From Octopus vulgaris (taxonomy: Eukaryota), in NCBI GenBank assembly GCA_951406725.2, contig OX597824.1, forward strand, positions 95,418,001 through 95,482,000: a stretch of 64,000 nucleotides of DNA. Direction: 5' to 3'. Below are positions 8,589-31,222 of the stretch, in pieces. Under the pieces are notes generated by a model, which did no database searches, was not told where the DNA came from, and saw only the letters and a list, made by a program, of their open reading frames with translations. The position numbers were made by a program, and so were the translations under genes. The stretch's first letter is position 1, and each line of letters starts with the position of its first letter.

Positions 8589-8643
<55 letters not shown>

Positions 8644-8830: not shown

Positions 8831-8910
<80 letters not shown>

Positions 8911-11900
8911 TACACACATAAGGTAAGCAAGAGTGTACATACGCTGTTATATATATAAATCCAAAAAAAAGGGAACAAGAACACAACAGATGACGATAAA
9001 GCATTCGGACAGAGAGATGATACAAAGATGGACAGGGAATACACACACACACATACATATGCAGTTTCCCTCTACCAAATTAAATTCACTTGCAAAGCAT
9101 TTGGTTGGTCTGGGGCTTTCGTAGAAAATACTTACCTAAGGTGCCATGCAGTGGGACTGAACCTTAAAACTGTTTGGTTGCAAAACGAGCATCTTAACCA
9201 TACAGCTGTGATTGTGCCTAGAAATGTAAATTCACATTTGGATTTTTTGTAAAAGAAAACTATTTCTTTCAGGAAGAAATATAAATACAAGAAGCGAGAT
9301 CGTGTGTTTGCTGCTGAAACTGCGTCTTCAAAGGAAGGTCCTGTAAGTTCCGTGGATGTCCTGGATGGACTGTAAGTATCTCTGGATATTGTTTTATTTT
9401 TTTTATTTTTTGATCTTCTTTCTTTAGTATATGCAGTGTGTGTGTGGGGGGGTATTTTTGTTTGCAGTTTTACAAAATTACAATTCAATTCTTTGTATCT
9501 ATAAAACCAACATCTCTAAATGTAACAGAAAACAAATTCTAGCAATAATAAAATAATGTGAAATATGTCTTTTTGTAAAGTAAATTATAGACTGGCTTTT
9601 GTTTACCTATTTCAAAGTTATAACTTAAAGCTTAAATCCGTCATACACAAGCACACAGCATCATCATCATCATCACTGCTTAACGTTTGTTTTCCATGCT
9701 GGCATGGGTTGGATGGTTTGACAGGAGCTGTCCAAACTCCAATTGCCTATTGTGGCATGGTTTCTACAGCTGGATGCTCTCCCTAATGCCAACCACTTAA
9801 GAGTGCACTGGGTGCTTTTTACCTGCCACTTTTATGAACGTGTTTTTGCAGCAGCAGCAGCACAAGTGAATTTTATGTGGCATCGGCACCTGAAAACGAC
9901 GAGCCTCTATGTATGGATGACAGCAATTCTACTTAGCTTGAGGCGTCTTCATATATGCCAAAGATCTTGGTCGTTGCCTCCATGAGGCCCAACACTCGAA
10001 AGAAACTGAACCACTTCCTGTCACCAACCTTCACCAGTTTCCAAGCAAGGTAATATATCTGGCTGTAGAAAGTCTGACTGACCTATATAAAGCCTGAAGA
10101 AGTGGATGTTGCAATGATGATGTTACAGTGACTCGGTTCGAAGTTGTGTGACTGGTGTCAAAAAAGGGAATCTAGTTATAAAATTTCATTTATATATAAA
10201 GCTCTGTCTGCAACAATTTCATCTCAATCGAAGGAGAGGAGCTTTCTCCGTCCGGGTTGCGGATTCGTGGAATAAGCTGCCGGACGAGATAGTGAAGATG
10301 CCGACGACCGCTCGGTTCAAAGTCTCACTTGACCACAAGTGGCCTGAACTCTTTGCATGAACACCCTTCCTGTACATAACTCCATGTCCCCCTACATGGC
10401 CTTGCTTTTTGCTTTTTGAGCCAAATAATTAACTAACATTTATACTTCCTGCAAATGTCAAAATTAAAGAGACATCTGTAATAGAATTGAAAATGAATGT
10501 TAAATATATACAAAAATGAGATTATTTTTTTTTAATGTCTACAAAAATCAAAATTTTCTGTTTATCTTCTGTTGCCAGGCCATCGAAACCATTGAAAGGA
10601 TTGAAGTTTGCTATTGTTGGAAACCTAGATTTTTCAGAAGAACAGATTACTCAGAACATAAGTAATATGGGAGGTCAAATTGTGACCACAATCGATAAGA
10701 ACTTAGCTGCTTGCATTAGCAATAAAGGTAGGCTGTTTCGTTATGTCATTAATTTTCATATTTCTCACATGAAAGATCTTGTAATTGAAATTGTTTAGAA
10801 GAGGCAAATAATTACTTTGTAATTTGTAATTTTGAAGTGGCTGTGTTGATAGTCTTTTCTTGGAATAGTCCTACTTTGCACATTTCATCCATTTACTGTT
10901 GTCTCTGGAAGGATACATGTGGCAACTTCCACCCAACCATTGTGACAATGTTGAGTAAATTCAATGAGGTTATATTTTAGTGATTCATAGCAAGGTTCCT
11001 TGAATGAGTGATGAAAGAGAATCAGATCAGAAGGTGAATGTATGAAGTTCGCATTATTCTGCCAAAATTAATCCTTTTTCATCCACATTGCCTTGAACTA
11101 ATCAGGCATTATCTTGCAGCTTTGAGATTTTGATGAGGTAGCTGTTAATTTTTAAAACGATATTGTAGGGTTGGTGTGAGAGACCAGATCTGGCCAATTT
11201 GAACATAAAACAAGCAGAATACTTTTGGCCAGATATGGCCGGTTTAAATGCTAAAGGGTTAAGGAGAGGACACGCTTGTATGAGTGGCAGTATGTATGTG
11301 AATGTTTGAACAAAAAATGTGTAAAATGAATATGTACTTTCAGGTGTAGGGAGATGGCCAGGTGAGTTAGACAAACTTAACTAAGGCATAATATCCTCTG
11401 TGGTTAGCATGCTGCCAAGGTTAAATGAGTTTTGAATCCTTGAGTTGCAAGATGTGTGGTGTATAAAATAAATGTCAACATGTTGTTACATGTGCTAATA
11501 ATCACTGGACGGCTTGTGACAGTCATGTTAATACGTCAACAGCAACTCTCTCGAAATGCTTGAAAAGACTAGGTTTTACTTTTTGCTGGAAGTTGCCACA
11601 TGTGTCCTTCTGCAGACAGCAGTTAATGGATGAAATGAGCAAAGCATGGCTGTGCTATGCTGCCGCAACAAAATAGTGCTAACATGTCACACTACAGATG
11701 CTTTATCCTTTTTGTTTTAATTTTCATATTCCATAAATAGGTTGTGTGCTGTCATGTCTCCTACGATATGCTATGTGACATAATCTGGTCTTCATATTTG
11801 AGTCGTGTCTTTTTCTTTGCTCCTTTCACAGAGTCAATAACTAAACCAAATAAGCAAATAAAAGCTGCCAAAAAAGCTGGAGTCCATGTTGTGAGTACAG

Positions 11901-14900
11901 CATTCCTTGAGGATGTGAAGAAAGGAGGAGTTCTTTTAATGATCCAGAAACACAATTTGGCTCCATGGGGAGACGATGTAAGATTTCATAAATGTTTTTC
12001 TCTAACTTGAAGATTTTGTGTAAATCATTCAATTTGATTGTCTGTTGTTTCAATTATAATTTTATATCTTCTTTAGATATTTGGATGAGTATTATCTGAC
12101 AGAACTACATAATCCTTTAAAAGTTTTGCTATATCAACTTATCTTTTCTATATCAACTTTTTTTTTTGCTATTGTGTCTGGGGAGAGTCATTTTCTTTTT
12201 GTGCCTTAATATTTAACACCCTCACCGGTAAAATTTCCACGTTTTTCTTATTTTTGTTGTCCTAAAATTTTCGTTGCATCTTGCAACCTTTTCAATAGTA
12301 TTGACTCTGTCCATTCTTTTTTTTGCTATATCAACTTATCTTTTCTTTCTTTATTGTCTTAAATTTTTTTCAGCCACAAAAAAGAATAATTGTGCCATAC
12401 GTTTCTAAAAGTGGAGCTAGCAATCCTAGAAATGGTAATTTTGATTTGATATCAGTATCGTATTTGTTTGCACCTCTTTGGGACTTAGATGCTAAGTTGA
12501 TGCCATTATAAACCTGCCGATGTAGGCATAGTTCTGTGGTAGAGAAGCTTGCTTTCTGACCATGTGTAAGGAGCTCAATGGTTAAAGTTGTAGAATTTAG
12601 CCTAAAATGGGTCAGATTGGGTTGAATGCATTGTTTTTATGTAAGGAGGCATTATTCCGCTTGGTTTCAAATATTTTATTAGATTTAATAGCTTTCTTTG
12701 ATAGGTGAAATGGCATTTATGATAAATATTTAATTAAAAGTAATTATTACAGTGACTGAAACAAATTTATCTTTCTTGTGGTTGTGTGGTAAGAAGCTTG
12801 CTTCTCATCCACAAGGTTCTAGGTTCAGTCTCATTGCGGGGCACCTTGGGCAAGTGTCTTCTACTATATCCTCAAGCTGACCAAAGCCATGTGAGTGGAT
12901 TTCATAGATGGAAACCGAAAGAAACCTGATATATGCATGTATGTCATCATTGTTGTTTAATGTCCGCTTTCCATGCTGTTTGACTGAGGACTGGTGAGCC
13001 AGAAGGGTGCACCAGGCTCCAATCTGATCTGGCAAAGTTTCTACAGCTGAATGCCCTTTCTAAAGCCAACCATTCCAAGAGTGTAGTGGGTGCTTTTACA
13101 TGCCACCGGCACAAGGGCCAGTCAGGCGGTTCTGGCATCGGCCATGCTCAAAAGGTGTTTTTTACGTGCTACCTGCACAGGAGCCAGTCCAGCAGCACTG
13201 ATAACGACTGCTCAAATGTTGTTTTTCATGTGCTATATATATATATACACACACACACATATGTGTATATGTCTGTGTTTGTCCCTCCACCATTGTTACC
13301 AATAAGAATCAGTACTAGGATTCCAAAGAATAAGTCCTAGGTTTGATTTCTTCGACTAAAACCCTTAAAGGTGGTGCTCCAGCATGGCTGCAGTCAAATG
13401 ACTGAAACAAGTCAAAGAAGAAAAAAAAAGAATAGATAAAATAAAGTCGTTTATATTTCTTTCAGCTGCCAATTAACATCAACTTCACATTCCTATTTTC
13501 AAACTTAAACTTTTTAATTAAAACTGCTATTTTATTTCTCTGTAGATACACATTTTACGAAAAGCATCCCAGATAAGTTGAAGATGATGGTGAAAGGAGG
13601 AGCTGCTGTTGATCCAGACTCAAGTATGGAAGTTCTTTTCTTAAATTTTTAGTTTTTGCTGTTATCTCTTGGAAACTATTCTCTCTAAAATGAATTAATT
13701 ACAGAAGACAGGTGTAAATTCCAGTAGACAGAAATGTCTGATAGTATGACTAAGTGGCTAGATTTTCAATTCTGTTAATTTTGTTGGATTTTCATTTTAT
13801 ATTGAATATATTATTAGAAAGATATTCTCAAAGCCACTGTAGGCAACGACTATTGTTGCATTTGATTGGTTATTGAACTGTCACATTTGATTGTTTAGTA
13901 TTGAACAATATATCTAAGCATCAACCCTTTAGCATTCCGATTACTCCGTCAACTGTAATGTTCATTTATTCATTTTGTTTTGAATTTATCATGCATTATC
14001 TTGTAGCTTTGAGATGTTGAATGCAGTAAATTAAGTACCAGTTATGCACTGGGGTCGATGTAATCGACTTAATCCGTTTGTCCCCTCTATGTTTAGCCCC
14101 TTGTGGGTAATAAAGAAACAGGTATACACTTCCAGTTTATTCCAGCATGGAATAATAATCACAAAGAAAGTTCCCAGTTTCTATTTGCTTCAGCATAAGG
14201 AAATGATTATAAAATTAAGTCTTAGCGCTCTTAGGATCAGTTACCCAGTTTTTATTTCATATAAGTGACTGGAATCTCAACATTAATTTAGTAATTATTC
14301 ATTACTCAGCTGATTGGACTGGAGCAGCATGAAATGAAGTGTTTTGCCCAAAAGCAAAACACACTTCCTGGCCTGGGAATTGAATCCATGGCCTAGTGAT
14401 CGTGAGTGCAACACCCTGACCACTTAGCCATGTTCCTTCACTCACATTTGATCAGTTAGTAGTAAACTGTCACATTTGATCAATTTAAACTCACATTATT
14501 TGATTGGTTATTAGACGGTCACATTTGATTGGTTATTAGACGGTCTCATTTGATTGGTTATTAGACGGTCTCATTTGATTGGTTATTAAGCTGTCACATT
14601 TGATTGTTTAGATTTTAAACTGTTGCATTTGATTGGTTAGTTATTAAACCGTCGCATTTGATTGGTTAGTTATTAAACCGTCGCATTTGATTGGTTAGTT
14701 ATTAAACCGTCGCATTTGATTGGTTAGTTATTAAACCGTCACATTTGATTGGTTAGTTATTAAACCGTCACATTTGATTGGTTAGTTTATTAAACTGTTG
14801 CATTTGATTGGTTATTGAACTGTCACATTTGATTGTTTAGTATTGAACAACATATCTAAGCATCAACCCTTTAGCATTCCGATTACTCCATCAAGTGTAA

Positions 14901-17900
14901 TGTTCATTTATTCATTTTGTTTTGAATTTATCATGCATTATCTTGTAGCTTTGAGATGTTGATGCATTAACTATTTATTTGTAGAATCTCATTGGAGGGT
15001 TGGTGTAAGAGGCCTGATCTGGCTGGTTCCAACATAAAACAACGTGGAATATTTTGCTAAAAGATAAAAAAAAACAAAAAGAAAACTGCCAGTTTATTCC
15101 AGCATGGAATAATAATCACAAAGAAAGTTCCCAGTTTCTATTTGCTTCAGCATAAGGAAATGATTATAAAATTAATTAGTTAAAAGGAGATGGTTTTAAA
15201 AAAAATAATTAGTTAATTTAGTAATTATTCATTTAAATATTTTGGTGTAATTTGTTTTGTTACATTTAATTTGTTTTTCTTACCAGAACTGGCAAAAACT
15301 GCTCATGTTATAGAAGATGGTGGAGATATTTATAACGCTGTACTAGGCTTAGTAGATGTTACTTCTGGAACTAATTCTTACTACAAACTCCAAGCCTTGG
15401 AATCTGATAAAAAAAGCGGGTAAGTCAGATCATTTTTAATTTAAATGAAATTATTAATTAATGAATTTCAGGTGTTATTTAATTCAAAGGTGAAAAGAAT
15501 TCAAATTTTTGGTCAAACATCATCAAATTTTGTGATCACTTTGTATAAAGTTTGTACAAGTTAAATCATCATCATAATCATCATCATCATCATCATTTAA
15601 CGTCCACTTTCCATGCTGGCATGGGTTGGACGGTTCAAACTGGGGTCTCGGAAGCCAGAAGGCTGCACCAGGCCCAGTCTGATCTGGCAGTGTTTCTACA
15701 GCTGGATGCCCTTCCTAACGCCAACCACTCCGTGAGTGTAGTGGGTGCTTACCGGCACGGAGGCCAGTCGGGCGGCGCTGGCTACATTTTACCACCCCCA
15801 AAAATTAAATTCTGTTCTTTCTGGTTTTACGCAATCTTTAACCCTTTAGCAAGATTACTCTGTCAAATGAAACATTTATTACTTCCACCTTAGCAAAGGC
15901 AGAGGTATTGTTTTCAGCTGTGTTTGTTTTTTTGTCCGTGGACAAGATATCTCAAGAACTGCTGGATGGATTCAGATGAAACTTTCAGGAATGTTTGACC
16001 TCGTGACTGGCAAGAACTGATTAGATTTGGGGATTGATCTGGTACTGGACAAGGATTCTGGATTATTTGCTATATTTACTTTACATGAAGTGTTATGATC
16101 TTATGTTGACTTTCAAGTCTTTCTCTGATTATCTCCCCTGAAAGCATGCTCATGGTTTCCATATAAGTTATGGTGGTGTTGCTGTTTCCAAAGTTTTATT
16201 TTTGTTTCTTTATTATTAATTTTACTTGCGTCTCTATCTAATACACGATTAATTCAAATCAATGTGAATGAATAAGGGTCAGTGATTGTTGAGTAATGTA
16301 AAAGGAAGTGTTTTGCCCAAGAATTCAACCTACTGCCTGGTCTAGGAATTGAAACCATGATCTTAAGATCCACAGCTATGTAGGAGCTGACTCTAAAACT
16401 TCCTTTCTGTTATTATTTTTACTTAACAAAATGTATTCTTTGGCTATTTTTCAGTTGGTGGGTTTTTCGGTCGTGGGGCCGTGTTGGCACAACAATTGGG
16501 AATAACAAAAAAGAATCATTTAGTTACCGCGCTGCAGCCATCCAGGAATTTAAAGACTTGTATTTCAAGAAAACCAACAATCATTGGTGGGAAAGGCATA
16601 ATTTCCAGAAGTTTCCCAATAAATTTTATCCTCTAGATATAGACTATGGACAGGTAAAATATTTTTTCTCTTGTTTTTAAAGTTTGATTTGCATTTTTTT
16701 TTGTCTATTTAATTAACTTGGCTGATATTTCAATTAGAATTTCGTCATTGTTATCATTGTTGTCATCACATCACATTGTCAAATCCAGCCCCTTGCGGAC
16801 CTCATAAGGCTGGTTTCCCAGTTCCCGTGATGTATAAATGGACCAAGATCGCAACAATCCTCTTGAATTAGACACCACTCATTTGCAAGTGTGTGGACTG
16901 AGGCTACATGAACTGAATTATCACCTGGTCCTGGAATTGAAACCATAATTTTGTGATTGTGTGCACAATGCCCTAACCACCACTGACGGTTGATGCCAGT
17001 CAGGTGGTACTAGCATCGACAATGCTTGAATGCTTTTTACGTGACACCGGTATAGGAGCCAGTCAGGTGGTACTGGCATTAACCACGTTCGAATGGTGCG
17101 GTTTATGTGCCACCAGTATGGGAACCAGTCAGGCGGTACTGGCATCAACCACGCTCGAATGGTGCTTTTTATGTGCCACCAGTTGGGTGGTACAAGCATC
17201 GACCACGCTTGAATGCTTTTTACATGCCACCGGTATGGGAGCCAGTCAGGTGGTACTGGCATTGACCACGCTGGAATAGTGCTTTTTACGTGCCACCGGT
17301 ATGGGAGCCAGTCAGGTGGTACTGGCATCGACCACGCTGGAATAGTGCTTTTTACGTGCCACCGGTATGGGAGCCAGTCAGGTGGTACTGGCATCGACCA
17401 CGCCGGAATAGTGCTTTTTACGTGCCACCGGCATGGGAGCCAGTCTGGCAGTTACTGGCATCAACCACACTCGAATGGTGCTTTTTACGTGCCACCGGCA
17501 TGGGAGCCAGTCTGGCAGTTACTGGCATCAACCACGCTCGAATGGTGCTGTTTATATGCCACCAGTATGGGAGCCAGTCAGGTGGTACTGGCATCAACCA
17601 CCTTGAAAATTGTGTCTTTGTGATAAGTTGGTTTAATACCAGGAATTGTTTTACTTATTGTTTATTTGTTGTTTACTTTTCAGGATGATGATAATATAAA
17701 GAAATTGGATTTGAGCAAAAGCACTTCCACATTACACAAATCCATTCAAGATCTTATTTGTATGATTTTTGATATTGAAAGCATGAAAAGGGCGATGATG
17801 GAGTTTGAGGTAAGTAAAGAATCTGTTGAAGATTTTCATCTAAGTATGGAGTGTTAGATAATGATAGAATTGTTCTTGCAATTGGATAGGATTACCTGTG

Positions 17901-20900
17901 TTGAGTCCACTGCGGGACGAAGGCCTCAGTCTGATTTCTCCACCAACCATGTTCTGATGTGGAGGCTTTGAATTTGAGTTTGGGATCAAACTGGTTTGAT
18001 GAGCCTATTCTGCCACACATGCATGACATGGCTTAGCAGAAGGTTGCAGTTTTTACACTCTTACTGAGCAGCAGAGATTGTTCTTAACATTTATTGTAGT
18101 CAAACTGTAAACAGATCAGCACTTTGGAATTTAGATGTCTTCAATATTTATTTAGTCTTTTCCTAGTTGAGGTTAATTTTGTCCATCTAAAAACTGAATT
18201 TGTTTTTCCTTCCACTTATTTCCTTCAGACACAATTCTCTATTTGGAAATCTACAAACTGTTGTTTTTTTATTTTCCCCCTCCTGAAAGCTTAGCTTTAA
18301 TCGCTCCATATTTCCATCTCCCTGGGCACACGAAAGATATTATAACCCTTCAGCATTTCACCTGGTCATATCTGTCCAAAAATATTTGACCTGTTTTTAT
18401 GTTCTTACCAGCTTAATCTAGCCTCACATCTTACATTGTCATTCTAAAAATATACAACCACCTCTTAAAAATCTTGAAACTACAAGATCATGATTGATTA
18501 ATTCAAAACATTGTGAATAAATAAGCCATTTTATTCTGATAGACTGATGTGAATGCTAAAAGGTTGTCTTAAAATCAGTGAAATTCCAATTCTTGCAAAT
18601 CTAATAGAATATTATTATCAACAGCAACTTTAGGAAATTAGAAAGAAAAGAGAAATATTGGAATATTTTTTATAGAAAGTGTTATTCATTTTCTGAAGTA
18701 ACTGATTCTTGGATTTTAAAATTTATTTTAGATTGATTTGAAAAAAATGCCTCTTGGGAAATTGTCTAAAAAGCAAATAGAATCTGCTTACAAAGTACTG
18801 AATGAACTTACAGAGGTTTGTATGTTTTTGATATATTCTTCATCATCATCTTCGTAGAATGTCTACTTTTCCATTATTGCAGGAGTCAGACTGAATTATT
18901 TTCTCTCTAATAGATATTAATAAATTACGGAGATGTACTTGCATAGCAAGTGACCTGATTTGAGATCATGTGCTGTGGAACGAAAGCAATTGCAGCGTGG
19001 AAGGTGTTTATAAGCCATTTAAAAACACACAAAAACCGTTAGATTCACTTCAACATATAAATTTAATTTGTCAAAATATTTTCATCGCTTTGAGACCGCG
19101 ACCTCTTCACTGAGAAAATTCCGTGCTGCATCTTTTTAATGGGATTGCTTAAATCAAATGCTAAATAAAAGTTTTAAAATATTTTCTGTGTTATTAAGGC
19201 GGCAAGCTGGCAGACTTGTTAGCACACTGGGAAAAGTGCTTAACGGCATTTTGTCCATCTTTATGTTCTGAGTTCAAATTCTGCTGAGGTCAACTTTGCC
19301 TTTTATCCTTTCAGGGTTGATAAAATAAGTACCAGTTGAATACTGGGGTTGATGTAATCCACTTACCCCATCCACTGAAATTGCTGGCCTTGTACCAAAA
19401 TTTGAAACCAATAGTTTCTGTCATTTTTACAGTGTTATATAACCCACTGCCCCGAGTAAACTTTTACTCCCAGGGGACATAGTGTATACATCTGAATGAA
19501 AAGGTTAACAATTTAACCTCTCGGATTTTGAGCTAATATTAAAACTAGATTATATTAAGAGAAATACAGAATATCATCACCTGTTCTATTGATAAAGTCA
19601 TTCTGAATTAATGTAGCTTACCTGATGGGTTTGGAGACTATTTTTGAGGACAGTTTTCAAATAGAAGATGTGATGGAAAAACATTTGATGCCATTGTCCT
19701 GGTTCAGAGTCACCCCCTTCAATAGTCCTACTTGCTTCAGTGGAGGGGTCTTGTCTTGCAAGTTATTTAGCAACCTTGTTGGTGCCAGTGCCACTTAAAA
19801 AGCTCCGAGTATGCTCTGTAAAGTGGTTGGCATAGAAACCATATGAAAGCGGACATTGGGACCCTGTGAAGTTTTCTGAATTGTCTGCTCCTGTCAAACT
19901 TTCCGATCATCATCATCATCATTTAGCGTCTGCTTTCCATGCTGGCATGGGTTGGACGGTGCAACTGGGGTCGGGGAAGCCAGAAGGCTGCACCAGGCCC
20001 AGTCTGATCTGGCAATGTTTCTGTGGCTGGATGCCCTTCCTAACGCCAACCACTCCATGAGTGTAGTGGGTGCTTTTTACGTGCCAGGCGAGGCTGGCAA
20101 ACGGCCACGATCGGATGGTGCTTTTTACATGCCACCGGCCACCAAGATAAAGATGTTTTCTTCACATTCTATTCTTCATCTGTTCTGTGATGAAACGAAA
20201 TTAATTCTATTCTTTTTATTTTTCAGTTGGTTGATAAGAAAAGTTCCGTATCCTTGTTTTCGGATGCTTCCAACCGTTTTTACACTTTAATACCTCATGA
20301 CTTTGGTTTGAACAAACCCCCTCTATTGGACACAATTGAAATAATTAAGGTAATAACAATTTGAAGCATTTTATGCCTCACTTTTATATATTGTTTTACA
20401 GAACATTTTTTTTCTATGTTTATTTAACCCTTTAGTGATTAAACCGGCCAAATCCGGCCCAATATATTCTACATGTTTTATATTCAAACTGGCCATATCT
20501 AGCCTCTCACACCTAACCTACATTGACATTCTAAAAATAAACATTCACATCATTGAAACTTCAAAGCTATAAGATAATGCATGATTAATTCAAAATAATT
20601 TGAGTGAAAAAGTATTACGTTTAACAGAGTAATCTGAACACTAAAGGGTTAATACATGGAGTGGAATCTCTATATAGGAATAGGATCCATTCTGGAATCT
20701 TATTTCTTTAACCAAATTGTTCGTTCCATGAGTAACTGAAGTTCATAGAAATGGGGAATCTGGTCCTGGTCACACTCAGACTCCACACAGACACGAAAAG
20801 AGGCTTTATTTGTCCATTCATCATCATCATCATCATTGTTGTTTAACGTCCATTTTCCATGCTAGCATGGGTTGGACGGTTTGACTGGGGTCTGGGAAGC

Positions 20901-21215
20901 CAGGAGGCTGCACCAGGCTCCAGTCTGATCTGGCAATGTTTCTACAGCTGGATGCCCTTCCTAATGCCAACCACTCTGAGAGTGTAGTGGGTGCTTTTTA
21001 CGTGCCACTGTCACGGACACCAGTCAAGGCGGCGCTGGCATTGGCCATGTTTGGATGGTGCATTTTACATGCCACCGGCACAGGTGCCAGGGGAGGCTGG
21101 CAACAGCTACAATCGGTTGGTGCTTTTTACATGCCACCGGCACAGAAGCTGGCATCGGCCATGTTCGGATGGTGCTTTTTACGTGCCACCATCACAGGGA
21201 TCACAATACATAAAA

Positions 21216-21250
<35 letters not shown>

Positions 21251-21890
21251 CATACACATGCTTTCCTTTTGTTTTCTTCTGTAGATCTAAGCTTATAATT
21301 TTAGCAAAACATAAGAGGAATATTATTCACTCTATAGAATAAGAGCAACTGCAAGTTAAATAAAATATGTACACAGACATTAGCAAACCATCTATACATG
21401 GTCTCCCAGCCACTCATGTGTGTGTGTGTTTAATCTATTTGTAGTCTGTTACTCAACTTTCAGCTTGTTAGCTGAATATAGATTCCTTCAGACAAACTGT
21501 CTGCTATAAAATTTATGTATGGCTGCCCCATTTGTATCTGCTTTCCTCTCAGCTACTTAACGTGTGTGTAGTCTACTGATGGTTTGTTGTTCAAGTGAAT
21601 GGGTTCCCGTTTACTAATGTGTGTGTGTGCATAGTCTGCCTGTTTGTTCATTGATAAAATCTCAGGTGTTGTGTGAGTTTGATTTTCCTCAGGTGTGGTT
21701 GTGTGGCAGGAAGTTTGCTTCTCAAAACCACATGGTTCTGGGTTCAGTCCTGCTGCATGACATGTCTCCAGCAAATGTCTTCTACTATAACCTTGAGCCA
21801 ACCAAAGTCTTATGAATGGATTTAGCAGATGAAACTGTGGAAATCCATCATACACACACACACACACATATATATGTGTATGTGTGTATG

Positions 21891-21921
<31 letters not shown>

Positions 21922-24900
21922 ATGTGTGTGTGTGTGTGTGTATGTATGTGTGTGTGTGTGTATATATATATGTGTGTGTGTATGATATATATATATATAG
22001 AGAGAGAGTGTTTGTCCCCAATCACTGCTTGACAACTGGTGTTGGTGTGTTTACATCCCTGCAACTTAGCAGTTCAGCAAAAGTGACTGATAAAATAAGT
22101 ACCAGGTTTAAAAAAAAAATGGGCCAAGTATTGGAGCTGATTCATTTGACTAGAAATTTTTCTAGGTGATACCCCAGCATGGCCACAGAAAACGATAAAA
22201 CTGTTTGCTATCCAATTTGGTTGTCCAGAGAACTGTTTGTATATGGGTGACCCACTATGTAAGCTAGAGTTCCCAAAGTGTGAGGGTCTTCAATGAAATC
22301 AATGCATTTATCTCTTGTCTTTTTTTCTACACAGCAAAAAATCGAAATGTTGGATAATTTGTTGGAAATTGAAGTTGCCTACAATTTACTGAAAGGTGGG
22401 GATGATGGAAACGATCGCATGGATGCAATTGATGCTCATTACCAGAAACTCAAGACGGATATTGAGGTAAATGGGGACAATGTAAACCAGTCCTTCTCAA
22501 AACCATTTTCTAACCTATGGACCCCTTTGATCCCACTTTTTTCTCAGATGAACCCTCCTAGTCAATTGATGTTTAGAAAATTCTATATTTTTATAATTAA
22601 GTGTTATTAGGAATTAAAAAATTGTTTAAATGTTTTGTGTATTGTAGAAGTAAAAACAATTTATTGCTCATAAATTTTTAACAACAAAATCTTATATGGA
22701 CCCCCGAAGGTTATGTGGACCCTGTTGAGAAACCACTTCACTAAAATCTTTTTTCCTTGCTATGCCAGTGCTGAAAAACAAGGTTTATCTAATACACCTG
22801 TATGTCTTTTACGCTATCAAATACCAAGCGAGATCGTTGCCAGTGCCGCTTGACTGGCTCCTGTGCAGATGGCACGTAAAAAACACCATTTGAGCGTGAC
22901 CATTGTCAGTACTGCCTGAGTAGCCCCCGTGCCAGTGGAACTTAAAAGCACCCACTACACTCTCGGAGTGGTTGACGTTAGGAAGGGCATCCAGCTGTAG
23001 AAACTCTAGCCTGGTGCAGCCATCTGGTTCGCCAGCCCTCAGTCAAATTGTCCAACCCATGCTAGCATGGAAAGCGGATGTTAAACGATGAGGATGATGA
23101 TGAAATACACTAGATAAGAAAACAGTCAATTTTTGTGGAATGCGAATAAATTGAATGATGTTTTCTAAAAGCCTTGCTTAACCTGTTAATGCACAATGTC
23201 CAGAAAAATGTATGCAGGAAAAATTACTATTGCTTGTTAAGTAAACTACCTATTGAGCTTATTTTTGGTATAGTCCACCTCTAAACTAGTGCTCTATGAG
23301 TGAGCAGGCACTGCGTACAAACAAACCAACTATACACATGTATGAAATAAGTAATAGTAATTTTTCCTTCGTTCATTTTTCTGGACACTATGCACTAATG
23401 GGTTAATGATATAGATGCCTAATTGCATATGCAAGGCTAGGACTACATTGGCTGTATCTCTGTAGCACAACTGAAGGAGATGGGTGTGAAACAATCTAAA
23501 GATATTTAGATATCAAGCTAGAATAGTTATTAGAAAAAAGAAAATGAACAACCTTTAACTGATTTGAAATGGCTTTTATTTATACACAGAATAAAGTTAT
23601 AAAAATGGTTTAGATCACCAATATTTTTATGAATTTGTATGTTTAAATGAAATTTCATTGAAGGTTTTGGGAGCGTTTTCTTATCAGCGTTCTTGTTGTG
23701 AAATCTTAGCAATTTAAAAAATCTCTATGGGACCTTAGAGACCTAGGTATCCATCAGTTGTATTTGTCTGTAATGCCATTGGGATTGTATACTAAAATTC
23801 TGATTATGGCCTATGTGATGATAACCTTTTTTTAACAAGTGTTGGTCTTCTGTTGAATTTTACCTGCTCTAGCAATTTGCTGCTTGGTGCATACGTTACT
23901 TTAAAGATGGACTCCATTCTGTTAACAATGAATTTGCATCTGCTGCACCCTGGGCAAGTGCCTTCTGCTATAACCTCGGGCCAACCAATGCCTTGTCAGT
24001 GAATTTGGTTGATGGAAACTGTAGAAGGCGGCGAGCTGGCAGGAACGTTAGCATGCTGGGCGGAATGCTTAGCGATATTTCGTCTACCATTACGTTCTGA
24101 GTTCAAATTCCGCCTAGGTTGACTTTGCCTTTCATCCTTTCGGGGTCGATAAATTAAGTACCAGTTGCGCACTGGGGTCGATATAATTGACTTAATCTAT
24201 TTGTCTGTCCTTGTTTAGCCCCTTGTGGGCAGTAAAGAAATAGGAAACTGTAGGAGCCTGCCATATACCTATATATATATATGTTGGTGTTTGATCTTTT
24301 CCCCCAACTTCTTGACAACTGGTGTTGGTTTGTTTATGTCCCTATAACTTAGCAATTTAGCAAAGCACCTCAGCATGGCCATATTCCAATAATTGAAACA
24401 AGTACAAGATAAAAGGTAACAAAGAAAATAGTTAAGGATCATGTTTTAAAAAAAATTTTCTTTCTCTGAATACAAGTAAACATTTGTCTATTTATTGACT
24501 CTTCTTGTTAATTGATTGTTGATTGATTTTGTGTATTGTAGTACATAGAAAGATCCTCCGAAGAATTTGATCTAATTACTAAATATGTGCAGAACACACA
24601 TGCAGTTACACACAACCAGTACGGACTGGAAGTTGTTGACGTAAGTTAATTTCTGTTTTTACTTATTTTTCGCTATCAAATTATGGAAGTTACTTAATTT
24701 GGACATGTTGGTAGTTCCTTCTTGAGCCATGCCCGACTCATAAGGACCAGCTTCCTGGTTTCATTGGCTTATAGTTTTCCCACCTGGACCAGGTGAGCTG
24801 CTAGATGCAGGAGGAAAGAGTCAGCAGAAGTTCGCCATTACCTTCTGCTGGAGCTGCATGGAGCTTAGGTTTTTCACTCATAAACACACACATCACCCGG

Positions 24901-27900
24901 TCTGAGATTTGAACCCACGATCGATCCCTCAACCGTGAATCCACTGCTCTAACCACTATGCCATGTGCCTCCACAGTTTGGACATAGGTGTGTGTATTTG
25001 TCATTTGAGCAAGCCACTTCATTTCACTTTGCTCCGATCTACTCAGCTGTAGAAATGAGTTTAGCCTGGAGAGGGACGGGCTCCACCAAGTTTTCTTTGC
25101 CCTAGATACACTGCATGGCTGCAGCACCCGAACGACCCCAGCGAGCTGGCAGAATTGTTACTGTGCCAGAGAAAATGCTTAGTGACATATCTGCTGCTGG
25201 GGGTCAGCTTTGTCTTTCATTCTTTTGGGGTCGATAAAACAAGTACCAGTTGAGCACCCAGTGGGGGTCGATACGATCGACTTGCTCCCTTCCCATGAAA
25301 TTGCTGGCCTTGTGCCACAATTTCAAACTAATATTTAACTGACATTCAAGCAATTGGGAAATATTCATCTTGTTTTGTAGGCATACAGACTTGAACGACT
25401 TGGAGAAAAGGAACGTTTCCGTCCATTTGAAGAATTAGCAAATCATAAACTGCTTTGGCATGGCTCTCGAGTTACCAACTTTGCTGGTATTTTGTCACAA
25501 GGTCTGCGAGTAGCACCCCCAGAAGCACCAGTGGTAAGTTACCTAAATACATTTCGTCTGTAATATAGGGTGAATATAAATACTTGTTCATTAACGTAAG
25601 TGGACCACTGCCATGATGTCAGGTGATTGTTGGAAGACAATACCAATCTGCAAATTCACAAAATATAAAGCTGCAAATAGCAAAATATATAAGCAACAGT
25701 ATATATCATGACTGGAATGAGTCTGTGTGTGTGTGTATCCAGGGTGTGGTGAATAAACTGTTGTCTAAATTACGCAAAAATGAAAATAACACTGACATCT
25801 CATTTCGACAGATATATTTACCAAAATTACATAAAACTATCTTGAAATACTAAAGAGTAAATTTATTCAATAAAATTGCCATTGACTTCAACCATGGCCT
25901 CCAGACAACTTCAGAATCTCCTGCAACTCTTCTGGATGGTCTCCTTGTTTAAGATGGTGAATGATGTCATAATCCTTACTTTTGGGTCATCTTTAGTGTT
26001 ATGAGGAGTTTTGTTGGTCTCTCGCTCAACTGCACCCCACACATAATAATCAAAGGGGTTGCAGTCTGAGGAGTTAGGTGGCCAGATGTTAGAAATTGTC
26101 TGACAGCCATGACTGGGTTCACCTGCTTGTGTGGCAGGGTGCAGAGTCCTGTTGCCAGACAGACATAGGCCTGTGGTTGATTTCTTTGACCATCGACAGT
26201 GCTCCAGCATGGCTGCAGTCACATGACTGAAACAAGTAAAACAAAAATCTATGCCATTTTAATTCCGAGCAAGGCTGGATATCTCTGCTAGTTATTATTA
26301 TTCAGGTCACTGCCTGGAATTGAACTCAGGATCTTGGGGTAGTAGTAGTTAGGAGCGCGGGCTACTAACCCCAAGATTCCGAGTTCAATTCCAGGTAGTG
26401 AGCTGAATACCATCACCTTCCCAGCTACCCCCACCCACTCTTGTATAATGTGGGGTAGCCATGTATCTCCTCTACCTGTGCTTGTTCCTCTGTCATACTT
26501 CAGATTCTCAACACCTGGCATAAAGCTATGCCCACTTCTTTCAAATATTCCCCCACCATCACTTGGTTGAACGGAGCTTTTTTTGTGACCTCACTAACGT
26601 CATTGGCATGAAAAAAAAGAAGCACCTAGCACACACTGTAAAGTGGTTGGCATTAGGGAGGTATCCAACCCCAGAAACCATGTCAAGGCTGACACTGGAA
26701 ACTGACTCAGCCTCGGGGCTTGCTAGATCCTGTTAACCCTTTTGTTACCATATTTCTACTGAGATGCTGTGTGTTTCTTTCAATTATTTTAAATATAACA
26801 AAGAATTTAGTAAAATAACTTAGTTGTCATTAAGCTAGTGTTAGGAACATAAATTGTGACTAAGGTTTGGTGGAAGATTTTTAATTCAAAACTTATGGAA
26901 ACAAGACATTTTTATTACAAGGCCAGGAGCGGTTTCAGCTAGGTTGGTATCGAAAGTGTTAAACTCTCCAATCCATGCCAACATGGAAAACAGACATTAA
27001 ATAATAATAATGGTGATGTTTCTCTCTTTCAGACTGGTTATATGTTTGGTAAAGGCATTTACTTTGCTGATATGGTATCCAAAAGTGCAAACTATTGTCA
27101 CACAAGCAAAAATGATCCAGTGGGTTTGATACTTCTGTGTGATGTTGCCCTAGGAAGCATGTAAGAGATATTTTACATTTCATTGTATTATTATTTTAAA
27201 ATTATATCATGCTAATAAGATTGTTGTATTAATGGCAAAGCTGTTTATTTCTTAAAAGATGTTTAGGATCAACTTGATAAAATTATCATTTTTTGGTTAC
27301 TTTTGAGCATTCTTTAAATTGTGAATTTGATACCCAGTGACCATTTTGTTCTTGAGCAAGACACTTTTTTTTTTTCAAAGGGCCAGCCTTGTCACATTCT
27401 GTGTCACTATAAGTCTCCCTGAGAACTGCATTAAGGGTGTGCATGTTTGTAGAGTGCTCTGCCACTTACACATAAATTTCACGAGCAAGCTGTTCCTGGG
27501 ACCCTTGTCAGAACCCAGGGAGAGCCAGTTTTTTTTTCTTTTTAATATTGTCAGATGTTGGTTAATGTTTAGATAATGTAATATATTTGATGGCATGAAA
27601 GACACCTTTTGAGACACCAGAAAAGTGTCTCAAAAATTCACCCCAGATCCTACATGGAAAGCTGGGCCTATATTACATTCCTTAATGCACTAAAAGCTTT
27701 TTTTTTTCTTGAATATGTGCTGCTGAAATTATTGTGCCTCTGATATGCACTGGTACTAGTACCACATAAGAAGCCCTTGTACTGGTGCCATGTAAAAAGC
27801 TTCCAGTATACTCTGTAAAGTGGTTGGCATTAGGAAGGGCATCCAACTGTAGAAACTATGCCAAAATAGACAGCGGAATCTGATGTGGATCTTGGTCATT

Positions 27901-28775
27901 CCAGCTCCTGTCAAAACATCCAACCCATGCCAGCATGGAAAACAACATTGAATGATGATGCTGGTGATCTTTTATGCCATCAAATTCGGTAATGCAGACA
28001 CGTAATACAGTGTTATACCTTGAAATGTCTTTTTTTTTAAATTTAGTGCTTGCATATTGAATTAATTGAAAAGTTACTTTTTGTATCTTTGTAGAAGAAA
28101 AGAAAACTGGGGTGGCATTTTATTTATTTACTTAGAATACTTTTAGAGATGCTTCTGTACATATGGCATTACAAATTTCTAGACAAGAGGTATTGCAAAA
28201 CATGGCCTGGCTCTTGAGTCAAAACGTTTTTTTTTTTTTTTTTTTGCTGAGTTGATATAAAAATAATTGCTTTAACAATTTGTACAAATTTTAGAACAAT
28301 TTTCTGTTGTTGAATAATATATAACAAAATTTGTTTCCAATTCTGCTGCAGGTATGAGCTAACATCTGCTAATTATGTAACATCTTTGCCAAAGGGCAAA
28401 CACAGCACTAAAGGTAAGACTTTCTGCACAAGTATTTTTGCTGGACAATTATTGTAGTACACCTGTCACATTTTCCTTCTGTTGTTGAGTACAGTATCTT
28501 TGTAAACCCAAAATAAACATAAATTATTGTTATATATCACACTTTAGCAAATCAACTTCTATGGATACATGTTGCTCTTTTACTATTTACTTGTTTCAGT
28601 CATTTGACTGTGGCCATGCTGGAGCACCGCCTTTAGTCAAGCAAATCGACCCCAGAACTTATTCTTTGTAAGCCTAGTACTTATTCTATCAGTCTATTTT
28701 GCCGTACCGCTAAGTTACGGGGACGTAAACACACCAGCATCGGTTGTCATGCGATGTTGGGTGGGACAAACACAG

Positions 28776-28833
<58 letters not shown>

Positions 28834-31222
28834 GATGGGCTTCTTTCAGTTTTCGCCTACCAAATCCACTCACAAGGCTTTGGTCGGCTTGAGGCTATAG
28901 TAGAAGACACTTGCCTAAGGAACCACGCTGTGGGACTGAACCAGGAACCACGCTGTGGTTCATAAGCAAGCTACTTACCACACAGCCACTCCTACGCCTG
29001 TGTTGCTAAGTTTCATTAAAATATTTCTTAAATGACTGACTTGTTTAGTAGAATCATTAAATGTATTACTATTACATTGCAATGTGCTCCCTAGAAAAAG
29101 GGGGTCTGAGATGTTTTGGCATTGCTGTTTCAATGCTGGCTTATTTATCATTAGGCATTTTAATGTTTCTCTCCTTCTTTCCCCACCTCCCCCCTTTTTC
29201 ATCCTTCCTCTTTGTGTTTGTCTGTGAGAAGAGAGGAAGTGTTTATGTTGATTGGGCTCAATTAATAAATGCAATGCCCCGCCCCCACCCCACTCTCCCC
29301 TGCATGTGTAAGCATTTATGTGTTTGCTTCTGGCACCAAAACAGACTGAAATGTCCACTCAGCTCTGCCAAATTATCTCATTCTGGGGAAAGGTGTGTCT
29401 ACATTTGCCTACAGTTTGCATAAAAAGGATAAGAAAATACAAAATCTCACTGAAAAATAAAATCATTTTAAAGATTCAAAAAAATGTCAACTAAATTGTA
29501 GTTGGGAGATTACACAGCTTCCTCAAGTAGTTGACCTCAGCTTCCACCACGACCTCAAGATGACTCCAGAACCTGGTGCATGTGTTCCTCACTGTGTCCC
29601 TTGGAAGTTCTTTGATGGTCTTGGCCACCAGCTCGGCTTTGATGTTACAGACAGAGCTGTTGGTGTCTTTCTCAATTGTGACTCACATGTAGTAATCCAT
29701 GGGATTATGGCCAGAGGAATTTGGAGGCCTGAAATTGGAGCTGTTGAAGTCATAAAAATTCTCCGACAACCACTTCTGACTCTTTCTGGAGGTATGACAA
29801 GGAGCCAAATCCTGCTGCCACATATGGTCTTCCAGCAGCAACCTTCCCCAGCCAGGGATTGACTACAGTCTCGAGCAGCTTCACACATCCTTCTGAGTTG
29901 AGCCTAAGACCCTGTTCAAAGATGTTGGGTGGTATGACATCACCTTCACTGGAGACATACCCAAAGACCTGTTGCTCATGGCCTTGTAGTCTCTGTTGCA
30001 GCTGTCCATGTTACATTTTACAGTCTTTACTGTGTTCACAGTGCAATGGGCAACTGTTGTGATGTCAACATTTTGATACCCGAAGCAAATTGTCCTGATA
30101 GAGGTAACTATTTTCAAATATTCAGATGGCTTCCAGTCCTCCATATCAGTTAACCTTTTCTCAACAACAATAATTTCTATGCTCTCCAACGCCTTTGAAT
30201 GTTAACCAATTTACGAAACAGCTGCTCCTGAAAAAAGAGACATAGCTAAGACACAAATTGCAGACGTGTGGTTAAATGGAGCTCAAATGCTCACTCATTC
30301 ATGTACTTATACTTTCACCCCACTCACATGTCTGCACACTCACTCAATTGTTTCTGCACTTTCTTTTGCAGGCTGTGGTAGGACAGTTCCGGATCCTAGT
30401 GGTCGACAGACATTTGATGGTGTTGAAATCCCAATGGGCAAAGGCGTTCCCTCGGATATCGACAACTCAAGTCTTTTGTACAATGAGTATCCTTCATCTA
30501 ATTGCTCAAAGTTTTTCTTAAATAATATTGTCTTTTGGTTAACCTATCATCATCATCATCGTCCTCATCATTCAACATCTGTTTTCCATGCTGGTATGGG
30601 TTGGACGGTTTGGCAGGAGCTGGCAAGCCAGAGCGCTATGCTAGGGCTCTGTTGTCTGCTCCAGCATGTTTTCTGTGGCTGGGTGTCCTTTCTAACATCA
30701 GCCACTTTACAATCTTTATCACTTTTATAATTTTCTCTCTCTTCTTTCTCTGTCACACATACACAATGCACATGGGGTCTTAAGTATTTAATTGGTTGTA
30801 TATAATACATGTTTTTAACTCATGGGGTAACATGTATTGTATATTCTGTAAGAGTACACATATACATGTAAGCATAGATATTTTTTTGAAATGACTATTT
30901 GATGGTATCTAAGACACACTTTCTTTTCAAAAACTACCCTGGATCTCATATGCAAAGTTGGGCCTCCCATAAGCTTTAATGCTCTAAAACCGTTTTCCCT
31001 TGAATATGTGCCGTTGGAATTAAGATGTGTCTAAAATACCCGTGTGTCTTTTATGCCATCAGATACAGTATGTATTTTTATCTCTGCTTTCTGTTATAAC
31101 TTTGTATTTCAACAATTTTTACGCCATTTCACCTTAACCACATCACTAGATATATCGTGTACGATGTTGCTCAAGTGAAAATCAAATATTTGCTTAGATT
31201 GAAGTTTAACTACAAATGGTGA
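1012..31222 (+). CDS. PARP1: Poly(ADP-ribose) polymerase 1, spliced gene, 5'-partial (23 exons in window, 2580 nt = 859 aa + stop)
   Basis: Exons joined at GT-AG sites with consistent phases give one ORF: ZnF2 C-half, NLS, ZnF3 (CPEC...C...WTKC), BRCT, WGR, helical domain, and ART domain with H-Y-E triad (LWHGSR, GIYFA, LYNEYIVY). ZnF1 and the start of ZnF2 lie upstream of the window. Confidence 0.97.
1690..1960 (+). mobile_element. Helentron/HINE-like non-autonomous element
   Basis: Subterminal hairpin ACCTCTGCC...GGCGAAGGT; homologous inverted copy at about 15880-16070. Confidence 0.5.
2560..2640 (+). CDS. PARP1: PARP1 exon ([20 protein letters not shown]...)
   Basis: tttcag/gtaaga, phase 2-2; resembles the end of ZnF2 (GFxxLxxEDK). 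Confidence 0.9.
   Translation, partial: HCWLQNSEEGRSKGIGGEIGQREQHQ
2723..3379 (+). mobile_element. hAT/Charlie-like MITE with a SINE nested inside (2894-3262)
   Basis: TIRs CAGTGCTACTCAAA / TTTAAGAAGCACTG; degenerate 8-bp TSD gtctacgt/gtctgcat. Confidence 0.75.
2894..3262 (-). mobile_element. RTE-tailed SINE ((ATG)n tail), one of more than a dozen copies
   Basis: (CAT)n-TTTAACGTCCGCTTTCCATGCTAGCATGGGTTGG; copies at e.g. 12944, 15568, 19906, 20818, 22826, 34536, 42486, 43436, 44307, 50565. Confidence 0.85.
3592..3673 (+). CDS. PARP1: PARP1 exon, bipartite NLS region ([18 protein letters not shown])
   Basis: ttgtag/gttggt, phase-consistent; KRK...KKPK. Confidence 0.88.
4969..5085 (+). CDS. 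PARP1: PARP1 exon, ZnF3/PADR1 N-part ([13 protein letters not shown]...IPSGESK)
   Basis: aag/gtgagt; similar to human AQNDLIW...VPSGES. Confidence 0.93.
5563..5717. mobile_element. Tc1-like MITE
   Basis: TA|CAGTTGTGGCCAAAAGTTTGGAACA ... TGTTCCAAACTTTTGGGCTTGACTG|TA. Confidence 0.75.
5932..6014 (+). CDS. PARP1: PARP1 exon, ZnF3 ([20 protein letters not shown])
   Basis: ttcag/gtatga; FGAL..CxxC motif. Confidence 0.94.
7022..7141 (+). CDS. PARP1: PARP1 exon, ZnF3 ([16 protein letters not shown])
   Basis: tttag/gtaagt; YxCTG...WTKC motif. Confidence 0.95.
8834..8918 (+). repeat. (TA)n(CA)n microsatellite
   Basis: Seen directly; similar tracts at 8568-8640, 21850-22010 and 28777-28832. Confidence 0.95.
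9273..9371 (+). CDS. PARP1: PARP1 exon, ZnF3-BRCT linker ([12 protein letters not shown]...SSVDVLDG)
   Basis: tttcag/gtaagt, phase 2-2 matches flanking exons. Confidence 0.88.
10200..10437 (+). mobile_element. CR1/L2-type LINE 3' end
   Basis: [17 protein letters not shown]...FKVSLD C-terminal motif followed by a 3' UTR ending in (TAAC)n. Confidence 0.75.
10579..10727 (+). CDS. PARP1: PARP1 exon, BRCT N-part ([12 protein letters not shown]...MGGQIV...AACISNK)
   Basis: ccag/gtaggc; BRCT GG motif. Confidence 0.93.
11832..11977 (+). CDS. PARP1: PARP1 exon, BRCT C-part ([17 protein letters not shown]...HNLAPWG)
   Basis: cacag/gtaaga; matches PARP1 VVSxxFL...PWG. Confidence 0.94.
12170..12310 (-). 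mobile_element. Penelope-like pLTR fragment carrying a minimal hammerhead motif
   Basis: Homologous to the inverted pair at 59280-59520; flanked by a 26-bp duplication TTTTGCTATATCAACTTATCTTTTCT. Confidence 0.55.
12259..12305 (-). ncRNA. Minimal type-I hammerhead-ribozyme-like motif, U3-A8 core variant
   Basis: Minus strand CUA-UUGAAAA-G-GUUGCA(AGA)UGCAAC-GAAA-AUUU-UAG: helix I, helix II and a palindromic helix III. Confidence 0.55.
12374..12434 (+). CDS. PARP1: PARP1 exon, automodification linker ([20 protein letters not shown])
   Basis: tttcag/gtaatt; needed for the phase 0 to 1 transition; carries a KS motif. Confidence 0.82.
13546..13623 (+). CDS. PARP1: PARP1 exon ([21 protein letters not shown])
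   Basis: tgtag/gtatgg; [10 protein letters not shown] signature. Confidence 0.95.
14442..14840 (+). repeat. Minisatellite of 25/29-bp units (CACATTTGATTGGTTAGTTATTAAACCGT)
   Basis: About 13-14 tandem units visible directly. Confidence 0.9.
15287..15419 (+). CDS. PARP1: PARP1 exon, WGR N-part ([31 protein letters not shown])
   Basis: ccag/gtaagt; GTNSYYKLQ motif. Confidence 0.96.
16455..16653 (+). CDS. PARP1: PARP1 exon, WGR core ([12 protein letters not shown]...[11 protein letters not shown])
   Basis: ttcag/gtaaaa; WGR motif. Confidence 0.97.
16995..17605 (+). repeat. Tandem array of about 60-bp SINE-internal units (about 10 copies)
   Basis: Repeating GCCACCGGTATGGGAGCCAGTCAGGTGGTACTGGCATCGACCACGC...GCTTTTTACGT; the same unit occurs 1-3 times in RTE-tailed SINEs. 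Confidence 0.9.
17684..17809 (+). CDS. PARP1: PARP1 exon, helical domain start ([23 protein letters not shown])
   Basis: ttcag/gtaagt. Confidence 0.95.
18732..18815 (+). CDS. PARP1: PARP1 exon ([23 protein letters not shown])
   Basis: tttag/gtttgt; MPLGKLS motif. Confidence 0.96.
20227..20349 (+). CDS. PARP1: PARP1 exon ([13 protein letters not shown]...PPLL)
   Basis: ttcag/gtaata; [10 protein letters not shown] motif. Confidence 0.96.
20424..20653 (-). mobile_element. piggyBac-like TTAA MITE, family A
   Basis: TTAACCCTTTAGTG...CACTAAAGGGTTAA terminal inverted repeats. Confidence 0.8.
22335..22466 (+). CDS. PARP1: PARP1 exon ([18 protein letters not shown]...[13 protein letters not shown])
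   Basis: cacag/gtaaat. Confidence 0.96.
23178..23406. mobile_element. TTAA-flanked MITE, family C (about 30-bp TIRs)
   Basis: TTAA-CCTGTTAATGCACAATGTCCAGAAAAATG ... CATTTTTCTGGACACTATGCACTAATGGG-TTAA. Confidence 0.7.
24542..24640 (+). CDS. PARP1: PARP1 exon, catalytic domain ([18 protein letters not shown])
   Basis: tgtag/gtaagt; NTHAxTH motif. Confidence 0.96.
25381..25533 (+). CDS. PARP1: PARP1 exon, catalytic His ([28 protein letters not shown])
   Basis: tgtag/gtaagt; PARP signature. Confidence 0.98.
25740..26160 (-). mobile_element. Tc1/mariner transposase remnant
   Basis: [16 protein letters not shown] resembles the WPxxSPDLNPxD motif at the third catalytic residue. Confidence 0.75.
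26733..26962 (+). mobile_element. piggyBac-like TTAA MITE, family B
   Basis: TTAACCCTTTTGTTACC start; near-identical copies at 32278-32504, 38841-39070, 49950-50157 (-), 60646-60877 and a partial at 1-60. Confidence 0.8.
27033..27160 (+). CDS. PARP1: PARP1 exon, catalytic Tyr ([22 protein letters not shown])
   Basis: ttcag/gtaaga; PARP signature. Confidence 0.98.
28352..28413 (+). CDS. PARP1: PARP1 exon ([20 protein letters not shown])
   Basis: tgcag/gtaaga; LPKGKHS motif. Confidence 0.95.
29420..30260 (-). mobile_element. Degraded Tc1/mariner element
   Basis: Minus strand encodes a frameshifted [14 protein letters not shown] motif and an N-terminal HTH-like stretch; similar to the 25740 copy. 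Confidence 0.65.
30372..30486 (+). CDS. PARP1: PARP1 penultimate exon ([10 protein letters not shown]...SSLLYN, first 2 nt of catalytic Glu)
   Basis: tgcag acceptor; ends GA followed by U12-type donor GTATCCTT. Confidence 0.95.
30487..31149 (+). other. U12-type (minor spliceosome) GT-AG intron
   Basis: 5' splice site GTATCCTT; branch point CCTTAAC at 31132-31138 about 12 nt before TAG; no polypyrimidine tract. Confidence 0.93.
30893..31069. mobile_element. Tc1/pogo-type MITE inside the U12 intron
   Basis: TATTTGATGGTATCTAAGACAC ... GTGTCTTTTATGCCATCAGATACAGTA inverted ends; related copy at 27580-27992 interrupted by a SINE. Confidence 0.6.
31150..31222 (+). CDS. PARP1: PARP1 last coding exon ([24 protein letters not shown])
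   Basis: YIVYD..QV..KYLL C-terminus; TGA at 31220-31222. Confidence 0.96.

What the first reader, a model, noticed from the sequence alone, without database searches (positions are those of the whole stretch)
30487..31149. Minor-spliceosome (U12) intron splits the catalytic glutamate codon of PARP1
Seen: the last intron begins GTATCCTT and has CCTTAAC about 12 nt before the AG with no polypyrimidine tract, which is the U12 consensus. It interrupts GA|A, the Glu of LYNEYIVY equivalent to human E988. Established: human PARP1 is a minor-intron-containing gene. Inference: the intron predates the protostome/deuterostome split. If it is retained, translation reads ...LYNEYPSS... into the intron and loses the C-terminal strands, so minor-spliceosome activity could gate production of active PARP1.
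Basis: partly seen in the sequence, partly recalled or inferred. Interest (0 to 1): 0.72.

Follow-up and report, generated by a model that had tools for sequence, protein, structure and literature searches.

The report
Ancient minor intron in octopus PARP1
The last intron of this octopus DNA-repair gene (PARP1) is cut out exactly where predicted and carries the signals of the rare "minor" splicing machinery; it is the same intron already catalogued in human and mouse and likely dates to early animals, while its proposed role as an on/off gate for the enzyme is untested.

Summary
Observation confirmed. Intron 30487-31149 (663 nt, phase 2) begins GTATCCTTC, has CCTTAAC with the branch A 12 nt from the end, and a T-poor 3' end. 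It is the only one of 22 in-window introns with this signature. Contigs from 6 of 8 runs laid (5 studies) join 30486 to 31150 with no ambiguity. U11, U12, U4atac and U6atac genes are in the genome. The codon is E968, equal to human E988. Human (CGA|GTATCCTTT) and mouse (TGA|GTATCCTTT) PARP1 have a catalogued minor intron with the same exon end (PMC6717393 supplement). Coral-, teleost-, insect- and bryozoan-like genomic DNA has it too, so it likely predates the cnidarian-bilaterian split. Decapod-like and plant-like PARP1 fragments and the octopus PARP2-like paralog lack it. One correction: retention still reads Glu-Tyr, so the residues after the glutamate are lost, not the glutamate. No retained form was seen here; mouse retention was about 4% in one of 11 tissues. 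Verdict: real, ancient, already known in mammals; gating unproven.

The parts
1012..31222 (+). In-window part of PARP1: 23 exons and 22 introns, residues 133-991 of the 991-aa protein P0034; four more exons lie upstream of the window
30372..30486 (+). Penultimate exon, ending in the first two bases (GA) of the Glu968 codon (human E988 equivalent)
30487..31149 (+). GT-AG U12-type last intron, 663 nt, phase 2
30487..30495 (+). U12 5' splice site GTATCCTTC; +4..+8 can pair with the genome's U11 5' end (one G-U pair) and with U6atac AAGGA
31130..31138 (+). Branch-point element CACCTTAAC, predicted branch A at 31137; complementary to GUAAGG of the genome's U12 snRNA with the A bulged
31147..31149 (+). 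3' splice site TAG, without a T-rich tract
31150..31222 (+). Coding part of the last exon: third base of Glu968, then YIVYD...KW and stop; 3' UTR is covered by contigs to at least 31800
30544..30711 (.). Dispersed repeat inside the intron (dozens of ~80% copies elsewhere in the genome); supplies most of the read-through tail
30728..30730 (+). First in-frame stop if the intron is retained

Best explanation
This is the octopus copy of the PARP1 last intron known from human and mouse; it is removed precisely from the transcript, likely by the minor (U12) spliceosome, and was likely inherited from an animal ancestor older than the cnidarian-bilaterian split. Shown: the junction, the signals, the four minor snRNA genes, and the same position in other animals. 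Inferred: U11 and then U6atac pair with the donor, U12 pairs with the branch point, and ligation of GA to A builds the Glu968 codon and attaches the conserved last 22 residues. The intron most likely behaves as an ordinary, efficiently spliced minor intron. PARP1 output depends on the minor spliceosome as for any minor-intron gene, and unspliced RNA would probably be degraded in the nucleus rather than used.
For: Junction in 6 of 8 runs. Only U12-like donor among 22 in-window introns, and no RTATCCT in 21.3 kb covering the upstream exons. U12 125 bits, U11 94.5, U4atac 83.8, U6atac 96.9, all over the Rfam cut-off. Human and mouse 5' splice sites CGA|GTATCCTTT and TGA|GTATCCTTT, introns of 427 and 239 nt (PMC6717393 supplement rows); it is the last intron in human (PMC9459249 passage); the mouse E988 codon is placed in exon 22 (PMC10453916 passage). 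43 of 119 metagenome pattern hits are PARP1 exons; 14 of the 43 hold the acceptor, and 13 of those 14 have CTTRAC 10-15 nt from the end. Nearest named relatives include Porites, termites, bryozoans and teleosts. Nuclear exosome decay of unspliced U12 introns: PMC4066798 abstract.
Against: No intronIC or PWM score could be run; scoring was by simple consensus counts. Spliceosome identity was not tested by knockdown. Taxa of metagenome loci come from short peptide similarity, and no locus was assigned to a sponge, placozoan or unicellular relative. Contigs drop rare isoforms, so low-level or tissue-specific retention is not excluded. The donor's +9 base is C, where 41 of the 43 other loci have T.
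Confidence: 0.82

Rival explanations
1. Rate-limiting gate on mRNA level: slow excision of this last intron lets U6atac or U11/U12 levels tune how much PARP1 mRNA matures, for example in proliferation or stress.
For: [quoted passage not shown] Parp1 retention rises when Rnpc3 or U11 is lost in mouse (passages). The position is kept across several phyla.
Against: Those are knockouts of the machinery, not physiological regulation. Mouse retention is 0.041 in one of 11 tissues. A pan-eukaryotic survey argues in its title that neutral processes may explain much of minor-intron evolution (PMC10639083). The intron appears lost in decapod-like genes.
Confidence: 0.13
2. Protein switch: the retained last intron escapes junction-dependent decay and yields a DNA-binding but catalytically dead PARP1 that traps on chromatin.
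For: The stop falls in the last intron, so no downstream junction exists (the decay rule is recalled). A mouse 33-residue C-terminal truncation is embryonic lethal while the knockout is viable (PMC10453916 abstract and passages). Residues 970-987 are strongly conserved. One unnamed mammal-like ORF cluster (P0244, P0359) reads across the upstream exon junction and then into the intron.
Against: No retained contig was listed here. Tails are unconserved, 2-197 aa with a median of 28, in 41 of 44 loci that reach a stop, and the octopus tail is repeat-derived. The mouse truncated protein is barely detectable and also lacks Y986 and E988, so it is not the same product.
Confidence: 0.04
3. The intron is now spliced by the major spliceosome and the U12 look is a relic or chance.
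For: GT-AG ends are shared by both classes; no direct test was possible.
Against: Poor U2 donor (3 of 6), no T tract, exact donor and branch cores each rare in the window, and both signals conserved in distant animals.
Confidence: 0.01

Closest known systems
Minor (U12) last intron of human PARP1 (chr1:226361542-226361968, 427 nt) and mouse Parp1 (239 nt), PMC6717393 supplements; PMC9459249
   Same: Same gene, last intron, same exon end (GA|) and donor GTATCCTT, CCTTRAC branch point, GT-AG subtype.
   Different: 663 nt, +9 C instead of T, branch element preceded by CA rather than CT, spliced codon GAA rather than GAG, a repeat insertion; the octopus gene has 27 exons by my count (human 23, recalled).
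GT-AG U12-type introns in general (consensus as described in PMC8199999)
   Same: RTATCCTT donor, CCTTAAC within the 11-13 nt optimum, no pyrimidine tract, non-zero phase.
   Different: It lies at the extreme 3' end of the coding sequence and inside a catalytic codon, whereas conserved U12 positions are enriched in 5' halves (PMC2426677 passage).
Mouse PARP1-deltaC allele (PMC10453916)
   Same: Full DNA-binding part with the extreme C-terminus missing, as a retained-intron product would have.
   Different: deltaC is an engineered frameshift that also removes Y986 and E988; a retention product keeps both and gains an intron-encoded tail.

Membership tests
U12-type intron | 5' splice site RTATCCTTT | tested here: met
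   GTATCCTTC, 8 of 9; other 21 introns 3-6
U12-type intron | Branch point TCCTTRAC 10-20 nt from the 3' splice site | tested here: met
   ACCTTAAC, branch A 12 nt from the end
U12-type intron | No polypyrimidine tract | tested here: met
   T fraction 0.17, lowest of 22; pyrimidine fraction 0.58, tied lowest with two U2 introns
U12-type intron | Excised at these ends in transcripts | tested here: met
   6 of 8 runs, 5 studies; contigs, RNA status guessed or unrecorded
U12-type intron | Host has the minor snRNAs with complementary recognition sequences | tested here: met
U12-type intron | Classifier (intronIC or PWM) score | not testable with these tools
   no classifier or matrices available
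U12-type intron | Splicing depends on U11/U12/U6atac in vivo | not testable with these tools
   published for the mouse ortholog, not for octopus
Ortholog of the mammalian PARP1 minor intron | Host gene is PARP1, not PARP2 or PARP3 | tested here: met
   P0034 has the zinc finger, PADR1, BRCT, WGR, regulatory and catalytic Pfam domains; 1120 bits to full-length PARP1 against 395 to PARP2
Ortholog of the mammalian PARP1 minor intron | Same codon and phase | tested here: met
   E968 aligns to chain position 1008 of 9mi8_A, whose residue 21 is Met1, hence 988; mammalian exon ends CGA| and TGA|; mouse retention primer ends at the same bases; mouse E988 in exon 22
Regulated splicing switch | Condition-dependent retention or a conserved alternative product | tested here: inconclusive
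   no retained contig listed, but contigs cannot show rare forms; tails unconserved

The most novel reading that the evidence does not exclude
Since early animals, PARP1 has carried a minor-spliceosome switch inside its catalytic codon: when minor splicing falls, the last intron is retained, escapes decay, and makes a DNA-binding but inactive PARP1 that traps on chromatin like a drug-inhibited enzyme, linking U6atac levels to DNA repair and to PARP-inhibitor-like synthetic lethality.
Probability: 0.05. Interest if true: 0.7.

Novelty: new member of a known kind. Interest (0 to 1): 0.2.

Why it matters
As it stands, it extends a catalogued mammalian minor intron to a cephalopod and, by similarity, to corals, insects, bryozoans and fish, with probable loss in decapods. 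A practical point: the donor reads Glu-Tyr-Pro in frame, so gene callers run through it. Three named public models (Blattella, Mactra, Cordylochernes) end in YNEYPF... and would be misread as truncated enzymes. If retention were shown to give a stable inactive protein, it would offer a direct mechanism for the suggested link between minor-splicing inhibition and BRCA-type synthetic lethality (raised as a possibility in PMC12332006).

Tried and rejected
Structure: the single-sequence fold of P0034 was unusable (mean pLDDT 32.5), and the alignment-based job had not finished at the last collection. That the lost residues form core beta-strands is therefore recalled, backed only by conservation and the mouse truncation paper. 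No RNA holder was on record as RNA; runs X2 and X10 did not cover the exons; neither is used as evidence. Lack of contig cover in the intron middle is not proof of no retention. A retrocopy as source of the joined contigs was considered: the DNA search showed no second match to either exon among 40 scored of 2469 candidates, which is weak, but the Pfam search listed only one such locus. Human cDNA numbering via c.2963/c.2964 found only unrelated genes. PARP had 0 hits in the main text of PMC2426677, PMC10639083 and PMC6865273 and in the one held supplement of PMC7367187. No paper held all of 'U12-type intron', 'ADP-ribose polymerase' and 'plant'. Searches listed nothing on the split codon or on the intron's age. 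Databases and supplements not held (MIDB, IAOD, the Larue and Roy data, bioRxiv files) may already list the octopus intron. The 76 non-PARP hits were dropped as chance matches. The Leptotrombidium record (1833 aa, several matching stretches) inflated summed scores and was ignored for taxon calls. Earlier-scan look-ups by place and by words found nothing on this intron.
Full report
Observation. The window encodes the 3' part of a PARP1 gene on the + strand. Its exons match P0034, a 991-aa public protein labelled PARP1-like of Octopus vulgaris. The last intron, 30487-31149, starts GTATCCTTC and ends ...CACCTTAACCACATCACTAG. Splicing gives [14 protein letters not shown]...KW* with the Glu codon built from GA and A. 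All 22 in-window introns were resolved with a single GT-AG solution each. This one alone has a U12-like donor (8 of 9 against 3-6), and it has the weakest U2 donor (3 of 6) and the lowest T content before the AG. Donor core and branch core are each rare in the window: 2 of 3859 GT and 2 of 1710 YAG. A loose branch-point score does not discriminate by itself (7 of 9, tied with six others). No RTATCCT occurs in the 21.3 kb that holds the four upstream exons.

Transcript evidence. Of 24 runs listed, 8 were laid. Six, from five studies and two coded organisms, hold a contig joining 30486 to 31150 with no ambiguous letter; two did not cover the exons. The four runs also join the five upstream catalytic-domain introns. 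The runs are RNA only by the tool's guess or are unrecorded. No alternative joint at this intron was shown (117 weaker joints were not displayed), and one search had zero depth over 30740-30901. Contigs drop rare forms, so this does not measure retention.

Machinery. The genome has U12, U11, U4atac and U6atac genes over the Rfam cut-offs. Their recognition segments are complementary to this intron's donor (+4..+8) and branch element. That they act here is inferred.

Identity of the codon. E968 aligns with position 1008 of the tagged full-length chain 9mi8_A, whose residue 21 is Met1, so it is E988. It is invariant in 50 of 50 aligned PARP1 sequences, and I970-D973, Q976, Y981 and F987 are kept in 48-50 of 50. 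E988 and Y986 are described as essential (PMC10453916 passage). The unspliced RNA reads GAG TAT CCT, Glu-Tyr-Pro, so retention preserves the glutamate and swaps the last 22 residues for a 79-residue tail after Tyr969, mostly from a dispersed repeat.

Orthology and age. The supplement of PMC6717393 lists PARP1 as a minor-intron gene in both species, with 5' sites CGA|GTATCCTTT (human) and TGA|GTATCCTTT (mouse). A review places the human intron last (PMC9459249 passage), and the mouse E988 codon is assigned to exon 22. 43 are PARP1 exons, with 37 distinct exon ends. 14 include the acceptor (introns of 180-1564 nt, all restoring NEYIVY), and 13 of the 14 have CTTRAC 10-15 nt from the end. By nearest named protein, complete introns come from coral-like (L039, L048, L056, L073, L075; Porites), termite-like (L050) and bryozoan-like (L049, L080) DNA; L117 is 40 of 40 identical to a teleost, donor only. 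Independently, gene-caller ORFs that run into the intron read YNEYP: 84 of 120 hits. Of 123 short unnamed or unlisted ORFs, 30 teleost-like, 19 coral-like and 8 insect-like read YP, 6 decapod-like and 1 insect-like read on as YI, and 59 were below the 80% identity used for assignment. Four of the decapod-like ORFs have intron-like N-termini yet read NEYIVYD unbroken, which suggests loss. A cluster containing Linum PARP1 reads NEYIVY unbroken in 8 of 8 members and diverges only after TAQ. The octopus PARP2-like paralog also lacks the intron. The simplest reading is presence in the cnidarian-bilaterian ancestor with lineage losses. Deeper origin is untested, and the pattern scan cannot count absences.

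Mechanism. Most likely an ordinary minor intron: precise excision completes the active-site codon and adds the terminal segment, and unspliced RNA is probably removed by the nuclear exosome (PMC4066798 abstract). In mouse, Parp1 retention rises when Rnpc3 or U11 is deleted (passages of PMC12332006, PMC6239176 and bioRxiv 10.1101/182816), but in normal tissues it is listed once among 11, at 0.041. That shows dependence, not regulation. The protein-switch idea has one real hook: a mouse PARP1 lacking its last 33 residues is embryonic lethal where the null is viable. Against it, that protein is barely detectable and differs from a retention product, and read-through tails across animals range from 2 to 197 residues without conservation.

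Comparison and novelty. It meets every U12 feature testable here and is the ortholog of a published mammalian minor intron. My searches listed no paper on the split catalytic codon or on the intron's depth in animals. A survey that includes an Octopus species (PMC10639083 passage) probably holds it in data I could not see. What I saw of each paper: passages only for PMC9459249, PMC12332006, PMC6239176, PMC8199999, 10.1101/182816, PMC2426677, PMC10639083, PMC6865273, PMC3754869 and PMC5386333; abstract and passages for PMC10453916; abstract for PMC4066798; passages and supplement rows for PMC6717393; a supplement search without hits for PMC7367187. Unchecked notes of this scan describe several other ancient U12 introns in the same genome, so one more is unremarkable. 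Verdict: real, ancient, a new member of a known kind; interest 0.2.

Noticed in passing
G000, L015 and L139-L150: U6atac has many dispersed copies: 43 matches over the Rfam cut-off from 46 scored candidates, a lower bound, against 3-5 matches for the other minor snRNAs. Thirteen inspected copies are near full length, 89-99% identical to L015, with unrelated 5' flanks and 3' ends often joined to shared repeat sequence. They are likely retro-chimeras; U6 pseudogenes in mammals appear in the search listing.
   Followed up: partly
P0130, P0143, P0176: Public models of Blattella germanica, Mactra antiquata and Cordylochernes scorpioides PARP1 end in YNEYPF..., likely annotation read-through into this U12 intron.
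   Followed up: partly
P0005, P0006, P0010, P0088: Decapod-like genomic ORFs read through the motif without the intron, suggesting loss in that lineage; P0009 and P0099 suggest a further, unassigned lineage without it.
   Followed up: partly
P0244, P0359: Mammal-like ORFs appear to cross the upstream exon junction (its place in mammals is recalled) and then read into the U12 intron.
   Followed up: no
L137, about 3.7 kb upstream of the window start: A 21-nt microexon encodes residues 41-47 of zinc finger 1.
   Followed up: no
window 54339-55197 and 56859-57287, minus strand: Fragments that look like LINE reverse transcriptase and a further mobile-element ORF, by recall of motifs only.
   Followed up: no
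window 17000-17700: Tandem array of a ~60-nt repeat unit inside intron 16654-17683.
   Followed up: no
L009, L010, L012 (C24); L007, L011 (C11); L013; L014: Other PARP-family genes in the genome; the PARP2-like one has an uninterrupted NEY motif.
   Followed up: partly
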